A program made the position numbers. DNA of 64,000 bases from Phallusia mammillata (lineage: Eukaryota), in contig OZ281495.1 of NCBI GenBank assembly GCA_965637545.1, positions 12,772,001-12,836,000 on the forward strand, in the 5' to 3' direction. Of this stretch, positions 12,001 through 15,000 are shown in pieces. How positions within the stretch are numbered: the stretch's first letter is position 1; the number at the start of each line of letters is the position of its first letter.

Positions 12001-15000
12001 CGTTATTGCCGAGAGCACGTTGTCGAAGTAGCGGCCATTAGCTGGTGTAGTTGCAGCGTCGACGACGATTGTCAGGTCCATAGGTTTCGGACATTTGTAG
12101 ATGGGTTCTGTTGGCCAAATAAGAAACTTTTGATCATGTATATTTCTGATATGAATAGTTCGTCACGGCTCCAATTACACAAAAATATGCTAATTAAACA
12201 CCAAAATAGCAACCCAGCTACATTTGACTCTGTGTTGTGAGAAAAAAACTGTCTAACAACTGGATAAGCACACTACTACAGCAAAAAAATAAACATCACA
12301 GGATTGAGGCTGTAAAACGACATAAAATCCGCCAAAATAAAGAATACATAGTTGACCCCTACTATTTTTATCAATAGTTCTGCATAATAAAAGTCGTTTA
12401 GTTCCAAAACAGTTTATACCCTTTTAAAAAGAATCAGCAAAGTATAAATGACCAACCAAACACGTGACACAGAATCCATTAAAAATGGCTTAAAAGGGGA
12501 TCTTGCGGCTTTAGATACTTTTTAAAACCACTACATTAGATCACCCAACGATACCTGGTGGTTCGACGATCGGTCGAGCACACGGAGCAGTGCAGCATTT
12601 GATACTAGCACTGTAGTTGTAACACCACGAGCCTTCTGCCTCCGACACATCAATGTGATAGCATTGTGGGAAGTCGTTAAGATTGCAACGAAGATTTGAC
12701 TGAAGTGTTCCCTGGTCACTCTGCAAAAAAATATGACTTTAAATAAATCAAATGAAACATAACGATACGACTTCGTTTTTAACACGAATGAAGCTGTTTA
12801 CAAGAGAGCATTTATAGCAGGAAATATGTACAAAACGTTAAAACAGTAAGGAGAACAAAAAGGGCACACATAATTGACAGTTAACGGTTTTGTAGAAACA
12901 TCGCAATGCGTTTTGTGAAGAGAGCCAACATAAAACTGAGTTTGGCAAACAGTGATTAATACAGCTGACTTTGGTGCTACGTTTGAAGTTAAATTTCAAA
13001 AATGGGTCCAAGAAAAAAACGTATATTCTTCACAAGTTTTTCGGAGTGTTTTTTGTTTTAAATGTTAAAAACATGCAAATTATCTCACCTCGCATTTTAT
13101 TCCGAGCCCAGTATACGATGGTCGACAGATGTCACTGAAGTTGTTTCTGTACGAAGCCCAACTCTCGAAGTCACCAACGTTTTCATGAGTCGGTTCATAG
13201 TTGCTCACCGGTTCTGGTTACATAAGTAGGTATCCGGTTATATAGCATAAAGGTCCAACAAACATAGAACAACGAGTGTACAAAAAACAATTGACTTAGA
13301 ACAAGATTGGGACTTGCAATTTAAAGGTGTTTGGGGGTATGGGTCTACCTACTGATGCGCTAGTTTACATACTCCATTTTTTGCCTTCTAACGCAGTGGT
13401 TGTTAACCTACAGTTAAGGGGCCGTGTGTCACGGTTTGCCTGCCTTGCATACACGTGAGAGTTCGGACACCTTACTTCTTAACTTGTTCTGTTGTATTTT
13501 TATATCAAGCCACACGCAGCTACCACACGTGGTGTGTTCAGCAACTCAATAATAGAATGAATGTCCCGTATGTAAACAGCATCACACCACATATCGGCAC
13601 AATCAGCTATGTGACGTAACAACGGTATGACGTACAACGAAGGGAAAAAAGGAGAACATTACTGTAAGGCAGAACATTACATTACTGACACCGTTGAATA
13701 TGCGACACCGTGGAATATGGACTAATTAGGTTAACTACATAACCCGTTTTATTGCATATAAAGCTTGTCAACCTAAATGTGCGATTAACCGGATTCGTCT
13801 GTAGTTTCTTAAGGAACATAAATGCAAAAACGGTTAAGCGTGTTTAACTTTCTAAAAAAGTTTTAAACTTTTATGATGCGAAAAAAAAATCCATCCTTTA
13901 TACAGCTGATAAGATCAAAAAGTGACGTGACTCACCCGTCCAGTAGCATTCGCACACCTCAGTGGTGCTAATCTCTGATGTCGTGGTCGTGTAAACACCA
14001 GGGGTCGTAGCTAAAAATGTGTAAAAGTTACTGGATACACACAGTGCTGGATTAAGGGTCTGCTGGCCTGTAGGCACAATTTATAAAGGGCCCGAAAATC
14101 AGGATTGCCAACTAAAAAAAATAGAATTATTAGTGTTGCCAAATCATTCTGCTGATTTTGAAGTGGCCTGGATTTTTGACTGGCCTGTAGGCACGTGCCT
14201 ACTTTGCCTAATGGTTAATCCGGCACTGGATACACAAAAGAGCAAGGTAGAAGGTGGACAGGAAAATGCAGACGGCGAACACAACTTTGTAAGTTTACCA
14301 TTTTAAACCAGCTTTGTTTTTGACAAAGCCAAATATATGTGTAAATATTACGTTGCTTCTGACAACTTTAGATGACATTGATAACAAACAAACAAACATG
14401 AAAGTAGAATATGTTGATGTTATTGCATTGAATCATGCTTCCTATAATGATGAAATTACAATGTTCTTCATAGTATACAAATCTTTTTCATGATGTTTCA
14501 TAAATCTATAAAATTGACAATTTATGTTTTGATTCAGTAACACACCCCAGTCCCTTTTATACAGTACAAGAAAATTTTCATAATGTTTGATGTTTCACGA
14601 ATCCATAACAATGACAAGTTATGCACTGGTCAGGTATTCAATAATACCTTACAATCCCTGACAACATAAACTTACTTCTGTGTGATGGTGGAACACAAAT
14701 TGCGTTAAAAACAGCGTTGACGGGTCCTGGGTTGTTTAAGTTGCTGTACCAGTTCACATAAGTTACTAGGCCGTGGAATGAAATCCGTTCCATCTCAGAA
14801 ATATTTGCAGCTAGTAAACCTACAGTGGCAATGTAAACTTCGCTACTTCGGTTCGTTCTTAACTCGTCAAATCGGCGAATCGGTTCGTCCAGAGAATCCT
14901 GTGGAACAAAAAAAATAGTCTGTTACTTCTGTTAAATTTTGCGTTCCTTCTGCTAAAGAAATTAAACCGTAATCATGATTTTTAGAATGGTGATAGTGTG

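What the first reader, a model, noticed from the sequence alone, without database searches (positions are those of the whole stretch)
12555..14010. Mucin CysD domain embedded inside a VWA array
SEEN: three exons between VWA19 and VWA20 encode CYWTEPVS...P...GDFE...C...IKC...C...C...CYNYSASIKCC. KNOWN: CysD (Mucin2_WxxW) domains interrupt the PTS regions of MUC2/5AC/5B and are absent from VWF. The C-mannosylation WxxW motif has become WTEP here. INFERENCE: either a relic of a mucin central region colonised by A domains, or a cross-linking module kept for net formation.
Basis: partly seen in the sequence, partly recalled or inferred. Interest (0 to 1): 0.65.

Follow-up and report, generated by a model that had tools for sequence, protein, structure and literature searches.

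The report
CysD-like module inside a VWA array
Three small exons in a giant mucin/von Willebrand-factor-type gene encode a ten-cysteine module that looks like a divergent mucin CysD domain sitting between two A domains, but the decisive whole-domain test was not run.

Summary
On the minus strand, three exons (13936-14010, 13089-13213, 12555-12720) have canonical AG/GT sites. They join in frame to the last exon of the 19th VWA unit and the first exon of the 20th. Together they are 366 nt (122 codons), a phase 1-1 cassette. It encodes a Thr-rich tether and then ten cysteines spanning 95 residues.

Evidence for CysD: cysteine spacing close to published human MUC2 CysD2 (as close in 292 of 2,000,000 random placements), a C-x-W-T start at the same offset, GDFE, a C-x7-C loop and a C-x8-CC end.

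Evidence against: the second Trp of WxxW is Pro, and the C-x7-C loop is polar. Taken exon by exon, Pfam, PDB sequence search, the ESM Atlas and a fold search of exon C found no CysD match. That scan is insensitive: only 1 of 6 neighbouring VWA exons passed Pfam's cutoff alone.

Verdict: probably a divergent CysD-type module (about 0.7), membership unproven. The host gene mixes D assemblies, PTS linkers, about 20 collagen-VI-like A domains and this module. Relic versus working cross-linker cannot be decided here. Interest is moderate.

The parts
14676..14898 (-). Last exon of VWA unit 19. It ends ...NAICVPPSHR plus one carried base (phase 1), with donor GT at 14675-74.
   Evidence: Sequence read and ORF. 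Other exons of the same unit match Pfam VWA: 15420-15653 at 36.3 bits and 16028-16264 at 19.6 bits. This exon alone gave no Pfam hit.
13936..14010 (-). Exon A: a Thr/Ser-rich tether (11 of the first 18 residues are T, S or P), then C-E-C-Y-W-T, which holds Cys 1 and 2 and the retained first Trp. It ends with one carried base.
13089..13213 (-). Exon B: completes the Glu codon, then P-V-S...P...GDFE...C-R-P...I-K-C-E. It holds Cys 3 and 4 and an N-F-S sequon, and ends in phase 0.
   Evidence: The exon-level pattern is unique in the six-frame window and arose in 0 of 100 shuffles.
12555..12720 (-). Exon C: Cys 5-10 including the C-x7-C loop, C-Y-N-Y-S-A-S-I-K-C-C and T-A-P-C, then a Pro-rich linker. 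It ends with one carried base (phase 1).
   Evidence: The pattern is unique in the window and arose in 1 of 100 shuffles. AlphaFold2 on this exon alone gave mean pLDDT 71.8 with a beta-hairpin.
11932..12107 (-). First exon of VWA unit 20. It starts with two bases that complete a Glu codon, then P-I-Y-K-C-P-K-P-M-D-L-T-I-V-V-D...
   Evidence: The Pfam VWA match is only 12.5 bits, E 0.18, below the cutoff.
10432..47814 (-). Central array of about 20 VWA units, many preceded by Thr/Ser/Pro-rich linkers. One longer PTS stretch carries 54-nt tandem repeats at 45317-45539.
   Evidence: Pfam VWA hits, unit starts, tandem repeat. The PDB search of the 948-aa four-VWA exon hit only collagen VI alpha-3.
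48269..62254 (-). N-terminal D assemblies (VWD and TIL exons).
   Evidence: Pfam VWD at 62003-62254 (E 3.4e-12). TIL at 57398-57667, 53377-53667 and 48269-48619. PDB hits to VWF, MUC5B, MUC2, MUC5AC and FCGBP.
530..9103 (-). C-terminal part after VWA20: a PTS exon (8996-9103), a Cys-rich exon (7911-8117), the start of a VWD (7008-7265) and VWC-like exons (3189-3473 and others).
   Evidence: for the ORFs, for VWD (E 4.6e-9), for VWC (18.6 bits, below the cutoff).

Best explanation
The three exons are a real coding cassette. They encode a short O-glycosylatable Thr-rich tether followed by a divergent CysD-type (Mucin2_WxxW-like) domain of about 95 residues with ten cysteines. The cassette sits between the 19th and 20th A domains of a giant secreted protein of the gel-forming-mucin/VWF superfamily: D assemblies, then PTS linkers and A domains, then the CysD-like module, one more A domain, D4 and VWC exons. 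Shown here: the exon structure, frame continuity, cysteine pattern, motifs and domain context. Inferred: the ten cysteines form five internal disulfides in a small beta-sandwich, as in MUC2 CysD. Also inferred: the module acts as a non-covalent docking or cross-linking point, binding either itself or D assemblies of neighbouring chains during polymer packing, as described for MUC2 CysD2 and CysD1. The second Trp is lost and the C-x7-C loop is polar, so its partner or binding strength probably differs from mucin CysDs. The cassette is 366 nt with phase-1 introns on both sides, like the introns between the A-domain units. It could therefore have been inserted, or could be skipped, without breaking the frame.
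For: Canonical splice sites and frame continuity hold across four junctions. The inter-domain introns checked elsewhere are also phase 1: VWA18/19, VWA11/12, the end of VWA20 and the following PTS exon. The ten Cys have gaps 2,33,11,13,8,13,9,1,4, against 4,27,10,19,8,16,9,1,2 for human MUC2 CysD2 as mapped by Ambort 2011. The summed difference is 20 and three gaps are identical. A fit that close arose in 292 of 2,000,000 random placements and in 24 of 362,880 permutations of the gaps. The Trp lies two residues after the second Cys and is followed by Thr, as in the MUC2 CysD2 peptide printed. GDFE is identical to the core of the mouse Muc2 CysD2 peptide printed. A C-x7-C loop has the same length as the one. 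The exon B and exon C patterns are each unique in the six-frame window and arose in 0 of 100 and 1 of 100 shuffles. The context is a protein with VWD and TIL assemblies whose exons hit VWF, MUC5B, MUC2 and MUC5AC, and a Thr-rich tether sits directly upstream. Exon C alone folds with pLDDT 79-85 over residues 10-50.
Against: Exon by exon there was no Pfam family at E<=10 for any of the three exons. There was no PDB sequence hit for exon B, and only a chance ribosomal uL16 hit (E 0.2) for exon C. The same library holds long MUC2 and MUC5AC head chains that this gene's D exons do hit. The ESM Atlas gave no usable hit for exon B or exon C. Foldseek of the exon C model against the PDB gave 0 matches at E<=0.001, best E 2.6, and none was a mucin. 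The WxxW motif that names the family is W-T-E-P here. The C-x7-C loop, described as hydrophobic in all mucin CysDs, reads N-L-N-D-F-P-Q here. Parts of my regex patterns were written after seeing the sequence and from recall of the Pfam consensus, so overstates their significance. There is no expression or orthologue evidence.
Confidence: 0.7

Rival explanations
1. It is a real coding module, but an unrelated or so far undescribed ten-cysteine spacer domain whose likeness to CysD is convergent or coincidental.
For: Every homology-type test that could be run came out negative. The family's name-giving WxxW is not met, and the loop said to be hydrophobic in mucin CysDs is polar here.
Against: The cysteine spacing matches a reference fixed in the literature far better than chance. 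Several independent short motifs sit in the same order. The host protein belongs to the family where CysD normally lives. Per-exon scans also miss true VWA exons: 3 of 6 gave no hit.
Confidence: 0.2
2. It is a decaying relic or pseudo-exon set: sequence left over from a mucin-type central region that is no longer spliced in, or is spliced in without function.
For: The second Trp is lost and the loop is polar. There is only one copy among about 20 A domains. Because the cassette is 1-1 symmetric it could be skipped without a frameshift.
Against: All three exons are open exactly between good splice sites. All ten cysteines are kept, an even number. The phases fit both neighbours. There are no stops or frameshifts.
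Confidence: 0.08

Closest known systems
CysD (Pfam Mucin2_WxxW) domains of MUC2, MUC5AC and MUC5B
   Same: About 100 residues with ten cysteines in nearly the same spacing. The start is C-x-W-T, GDFE is present, and there is a C-x7-C loop and a C-x8-CC end. An upstream Thr-rich tether is present, and the host protein has VWD and TIL assemblies.
   Different: The second Trp of WxxW is Pro. The C-x7-C loop is polar. The first Cys pair is C-x-C rather than C-x3-C, and the last is CC-x3-C rather than CC-x-C. The flanks are A domains rather than long PTS regions. No HMM or structural match was obtained at exon level.
Human von Willebrand factor
   Same: D assemblies at the N-terminus, A domains in the centre, then D4 and VWC. 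The two TIL exons score best against VWF: 107 and 118 bits, against 75-82 for MUC5B and 56-80 for MUC2.
   Different: There are about 20 A domains instead of 3, and they hit collagen VI alpha-3 but none of the VWF A-domain structures. PTS linkers and a CysD-like module are present, and VWF is not described as having these.
Invertebrate mucin-like proteins with CysD among F5_F8 domains (Lang et al. 2016), and Oikosin 1 and CILP
   Same: They show that CysD-type modules occur next to globular domains and outside classical PTS regions.
   Different: The neighbours here are VWA domains. I saw no F5_F8-type exon in the ORF listing, though I did not scan for one systematically.
Ciona Ci-GFM1 (Nakashima et al. 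2018)
   Same: It is a mosaic protein on the shared D1-D2-D'D3...D4-VWC-CK scaffold, with lineage-specific modules and only a small PTS in the centre.
   Different: Ci-GFM1 carries chitin-binding and other domains. The passages I read mention no VWA array or CysD.

Membership tests
CysD / Pfam Mucin2_WxxW | Match to the family HMM above its gathering score | tested here: inconclusive
   Scanned exon by exon only, with 0 families at E<=10 for each of the 3 exons. The same per-exon scan put only 1 of 6 exons of the flanking VWA units above the VWA cutoff.
CysD / Pfam Mucin2_WxxW | Ten cysteines in about 100 residues with the CysD spacing (five internal disulfides) | tested here: met
   Ten Cys over 95 residues. 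Gaps are 2,33,11,13,8,13,9,1,4 against 4,27,10,19,8,16,9,1,2 in MUC2 CysD2. A fit that close arose in 292 of 2,000,000 random placements. Disulfide pairing itself was not tested.
CysD / Pfam Mucin2_WxxW | Conserved WxxW motif just after the second cysteine | tested here: not met
   The first Trp and the following Thr are kept at the same offset, but the fourth position is Pro (W-T-E-P). Lang 2016 and Javitt 2020 call WxxW conserved or characteristic.
CysD / Pfam Mucin2_WxxW | Hydrophobic loop closed by a C-x7-C disulfide, said to be present in all mucin CysDs | tested here: inconclusive
   The loop length is identical (C-x7-C), but the content is N-L-N-D-F-P-Q, which is much less hydrophobic than the MUC2 loop printed.
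CysD / Pfam Mucin2_WxxW | Small beta-sandwich (three strands per sheet) with two bound calcium ions | tested here: inconclusive
   Only single exons were folded. Exon C gave pLDDT 71.8 with one hairpin, and Foldseek against the PDB gave 0 hits at E<=0.001. Exon B gave pLDDT 57, too poor to search. GDFE is present, but that it binds calcium is only my recollection. The full-domain fold was not run.
CysD / Pfam Mucin2_WxxW | Non-covalent self-association or docking on D assemblies | not testable with these tools
   Known for MUC2 from Ambort 2011 and Javitt 2020. It needs the whole domain and bench work.
Gel-forming mucin | Three N-terminal VWD-C8-TIL units plus central PTS regions | tested here: inconclusive
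   VWD and TIL exons were found. PTS-like linkers lie between many A domains, and one longer repeat-bearing PTS stretch exists. The centre, however, is dominated by A domains, and C8 exons were not scanned.
von Willebrand factor | D1-D2-D'D3, then A1-A2-A3, then D4, VWC and CTCK, with A domains orthologous to VWF A1-A3 | tested here: not met
   There are about 20 A domains. The four-A-domain exon hit 3 PDB sequences, all collagen VI alpha-3, and no VWF A domain. The TIL exons do favour VWF. CTCK was not seen in the window.

The most novel reading that the evidence does not exclude
This gene is a living mosaic of the two lineages usually drawn as alternatives, with PTS and CysD in mucins and A domains in VWF. 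The CysD-like module would then be an ancestral mucin-type docking element retained in a polymer whose centre was colonised by collagen-VI-like A domains. It would still dock on D assemblies of neighbouring chains to set the packing of an A-domain-based extracellular net.
Probability: 0.15. Interest if true: 0.65.

Novelty: new variant of a known kind. Interest (0 to 1): 0.4.

Why it matters
Textbook accounts say mucins and VWF diverged from a shared D-assembly scaffold by filling the centre with PTS (plus CysD) or with A domains. A single gene carrying PTS linkers, a CysD-like module and a long A-domain array shows that these modules can coexist. It also offers a natural case for asking what CysD does when it is not surrounded by glycosylated PTS. 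The naturally Trp-less motif (W-T-E-P) is a test case for the debated role of WxxW and C-mannosylation in CysD. In the library searched, no paper connects CysD with VWA arrays. The 8 papers holding both 'CysD' and 'VWA' and the single paper holding both 'Mucin2_WxxW' and 'VWA' do not describe such an architecture, judging from the listings and the passages I read. Predicted proteins of this kind may nevertheless already sit unremarked in sequence databases that I could not query.

Tried and rejected
- Per-exon Pfam scan at E<=10 found nothing for the three exons.
- Per-exon PDB sequence search found nothing for exon B and a chance uL16 hit for exon C.
- ESM Atlas look-alike search of exons B and C gave no usable hit.
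- AlphaFold2 on single exons: exon C was usable, but Foldseek against the PDB gave only chance-level hits. Exon B was too poor (pLDDT 57) and was not sent to Foldseek.
- A search for further copies in the window found none.
- I looked for a reported CysD-VWA interaction in the CLCA1 paper. The passages read describe CLCA1 cleaving the MUC2 N-terminus, not binding of VWA to CysD.
- The snail mucus paper mentions VWA proteins, but not on a D-assembly scaffold.
- The 2023 FEBS J paper on CysD diversity is not held.
- Left out: the search and fold of the joined, spliced peptide. I also did not give the three pieces together to the complex predictor, because that would be the same step by another route.
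- Not used: the genome-contig scan, which covers prokaryotes only and is uninformative for a metazoan domain.
- Supplements are closed. Supplementary fig. S4 of Lang et al. 2016, which shows invertebrate domain architectures, could reveal whether a VWA-plus-CysD architecture was already seen.

Full report
**What is there**

The finding lies in a very large gene on the minus strand that fills nearly the whole window. Reading 12300-14300 and translating each candidate exon alone gives three exons:
- Exon A, 13936-14010 (75 nt).
- Exon B, 13089-13213 (125 nt).
- Exon C, 12555-12720 (166 nt).

Each exon is bounded by an AG acceptor behind a pyrimidine tract and by a GT donor.
- Exon A encodes a Thr/Ser-rich stretch (11 of its first 18 residues are T, S or P) and ends in C-E-C-Y-W-T.
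- A split codon G|AA gives Glu.
- Exon B starts P-V-S and carries P...GDFE...C-R-P...I-K-C-E.
- Exon C carries the remaining six cysteines, including C-x7-C and C-Y-N-Y-S-A-S-I-K-C-C, then a Pro-rich linker.

The window contains no N.

**Is it more than chance?**

- The upstream exon (14676-14898) ends ...N-A-I-C-V-P-P-S-H-R plus one carried base.
- The downstream exon (11932-12107) begins with two bases and continues P-I-Y-K-C-P-K-P-M-D-L-T-I-V-V-D.
- All four junctions therefore keep one reading frame.
- The three exons sum to 366 nt, which is 122 codons, and they are bounded by phase-1 introns.
- The inter-domain introns I checked elsewhere in the array are also phase 1: VWA18/19, VWA11/12, the end of VWA20 and the following PTS exon.
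- The block is thus a symmetric 1-1 cassette of the kind that can be shuffled in, or skipped, without a frameshift.
- It is single-copy. In tblastn of each exon peptide against the window only the self hit had E<0.01.

**Context**

- Pfam finds VWD and TIL in the exons between about 48 and 62 kb.
- It finds VWA repeatedly between about 10 and 48 kb.
- It finds a VWD start at 7008-7265 and a weak VWC at 3189-3473.
- A regex for VWA starts gave 23 hits. I rejected four by eye because they lie off the exon series, and I added one that the regex missed but that is visible.
- Many units are preceded by Thr/Ser/Pro-rich linkers. One longer PTS stretch carries 54-nt tandem repeats.
- The two TIL exons score best against human VWF: 107 and 118 summed bits. 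The TIL2 stretch aligns to VWF 649-718 at roughly half identity. MUC5B scores 75-82 bits and MUC2 56-80 bits.
- The VWD-start exons are mixed between FCGBP, mucins and VWF.
- The 948-residue exon with four A domains hits only collagen VI alpha-3 and no VWF A domain.
- The host is therefore a member of the mucin/VWF superfamily whose centre mixes PTS linkers with collagen-VI-like A domains. I do not take it for human.

**Is the module a CysD?**

I did so. The HMM search, PDB search and fold of the joined 122-residue peptide were not run. I also did not feed the pieces together to the complex predictor.

Exon by exon the homology-type tests are negative:
- Pfam: no family at E<=10 for any of the three exons.
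- PDB sequence search: nothing for exon B, and only a chance ribosomal hit (E 0.2) for exon C. The library holds long MUC2 and MUC5AC head chains that the D exons hit. That those chains include CysD1 is my inference from their lengths and.
- ESM Atlas: no usable hit for exon B or exon C.
- Structure: exon C alone folds with mean pLDDT 71.8 and a beta-hairpin, but Foldseek finds nothing below E 2.6. Exon B alone is too poorly predicted to use.

These negatives carry limited weight. Of the six exons of the flanking VWA units 19 and 20 scanned singly, one passed the VWA cutoff, two scored below it and three matched nothing.

**Positive evidence from published CysD features**

- Ambort et al. 2011 (passages) map ten cysteines of human MUC2 CysD2 at construct positions 32, 36, 63, 73, 92, 100, 116, 125, 126 and 128. 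That gives gaps of 4,27,10,19,8,16,9,1,2 over 97 residues.
- The module has ten cysteines with gaps of 2,33,11,13,8,13,9,1,4 over 95 residues.
- The summed difference is 20, and three gaps are identical (8, 9, 1).
- With the published vector as a fixed reference, a fit that close arose in 292 of 2,000,000 uniform random placements and in 24 of 362,880 permutations of the observed gaps.
- The paper's CysD2 peptide shows Trp two residues after the second Cys, followed by Thr. The module has the same.
- The mouse Muc2 CysD2 peptide printed has GDFE at its core, and exon B has GDFE.
- The C-x7-C loop has the same length as in MUC2.
- Exon-level regular expressions for these features are unique in the six-frame window and rare in shuffles: 0 of 100 for exon B and 1 of 100 for exon C. 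The short exon A pattern is common, at 34 of 100. Parts of these patterns were written after seeing the sequence and from recall, so I treat as supportive only.

**Departures from CysD**

- The second Trp of WxxW is Pro. Lang 2016 and Javitt 2020 call WxxW conserved or characteristic.
- The C-x7-C loop, described as hydrophobic in all mucin CysDs and linked to self-association, is polar here.
- The terminal Cys spacings differ by two residues at each end.

I therefore describe the module as CysD-like and probably homologous (about 0.7). I do not file it as a proven member.

**How it most likely works**

What the literature shows:
- MUC2 CysD2 forms non-covalent dimers (Ambort 2011).
- MUC2 CysD1 is a small calcium-binding beta-sandwich on a PTS tether of about 40 residues. 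It docks on D1/D2 of the neighbouring bead and is needed for filament formation at Golgi pH (Javitt 2020).
- Isopeptide cross-links through CysD are also reported.

By analogy, this module probably serves as a disulfide-stabilised docking or cross-linking knob. It sits about 25 residues after the last Cys of A domain 19 and about 13 residues before the first Cys of A domain 20. It would help pack or laterally link the polymer. Only the anatomy is shown here, and the function is inference. Loss of the second Trp and of loop hydrophobicity suggests an altered partner or weaker self-association.

**Relic or working part?**

- Intact frames, good splice sites and retention of all ten cysteines argue against decay.
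- Single copy number and the departures from the motif leave a relic reading open.
- The direction of evolution (A domains invading a mucin centre, or a CysD cassette shuffled into an A-domain array) cannot be decided without orthologues.

**Comparison with what is known, and novelty**

- CysD in PTS regions of MUC2/5AC/5B is textbook.
- Lang et al. 2016 date CysD to the base of Bilateria and find it among F5_F8 domains in several invertebrate groups.
- Oikosin 1 and CILP carry relatives.
- Mucins and VWF are described as having filled a shared scaffold with PTS or with A domains.
- I found no paper in the searched library describing a CysD within a VWA array (judged from listings and from passages of five papers). 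Supplements were closed and sequence databases could not be queried.

I rate this a new variant of a known kind, of moderate interest.

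Noticed in passing
window 41452-42777 (-): A 441-codon open frame with a strong reverse-transcriptase match (Pfam RVT_1, E 2.1e-33) lies inside an intron of the VWA array, on the same strand as the gene. It is probably a non-LTR retroelement insertion.
   Followed up: partly
window 24161-24288 (-), inside exon ORF 23968-24549: A 12-nt tandem repeat of 10.7 copies encodes a (G-G-V-N)-type low-complexity run in the middle of what reads as the last exon of VWA unit 11. This looks like a coding microsatellite expansion inside an A domain.
   Followed up: no
window 45317-45539 (-): A 54-nt tandem repeat of 4.1 copies encodes an 18-residue Thr/Pro/Gly-rich repeat in the long linker before VWA unit 4. 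This is a true mucin-style PTS repeat within the A-domain array.
   Followed up: partly
window 19642-22488 (-): The A domains of this gene match collagen VI alpha-3 structures (E 4.8e-37) but none of the many VWF A1-A3 structures in the PDB. The TIL exons of the same gene prefer VWF. The scaffold and the centre seem to have different affinities.
   Followed up: partly
window 9632-10100 and 34170-34300: There are two intronic satellites: a 17-nt unit in 27.6 copies, and an 11-nt unit in 11.6 copies that produces long spurious open frames on both strands.
   Followed up: no
window 14040-14210: The intron just upstream of exon A contains two copies of a motif of about 15 nt (ctggcctgtaggcac), about 125 nt apart. 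It may be part of a small repeat element.
   Followed up: no
window 12556-12720 and 16709-16732 (-): The linker after the module (C-T-A-P-C-A-R-P-I-V-E-P-P, then G|gt) resembles the linker ending VWA unit 18 (C-T-A-P-I-T-P-P, then G|gt). Both have the same ...CCACCAG|gt donor context. This could be a trace of how the cassette was joined to the array, or just a shared Pro-rich linker style.
   Followed up: no
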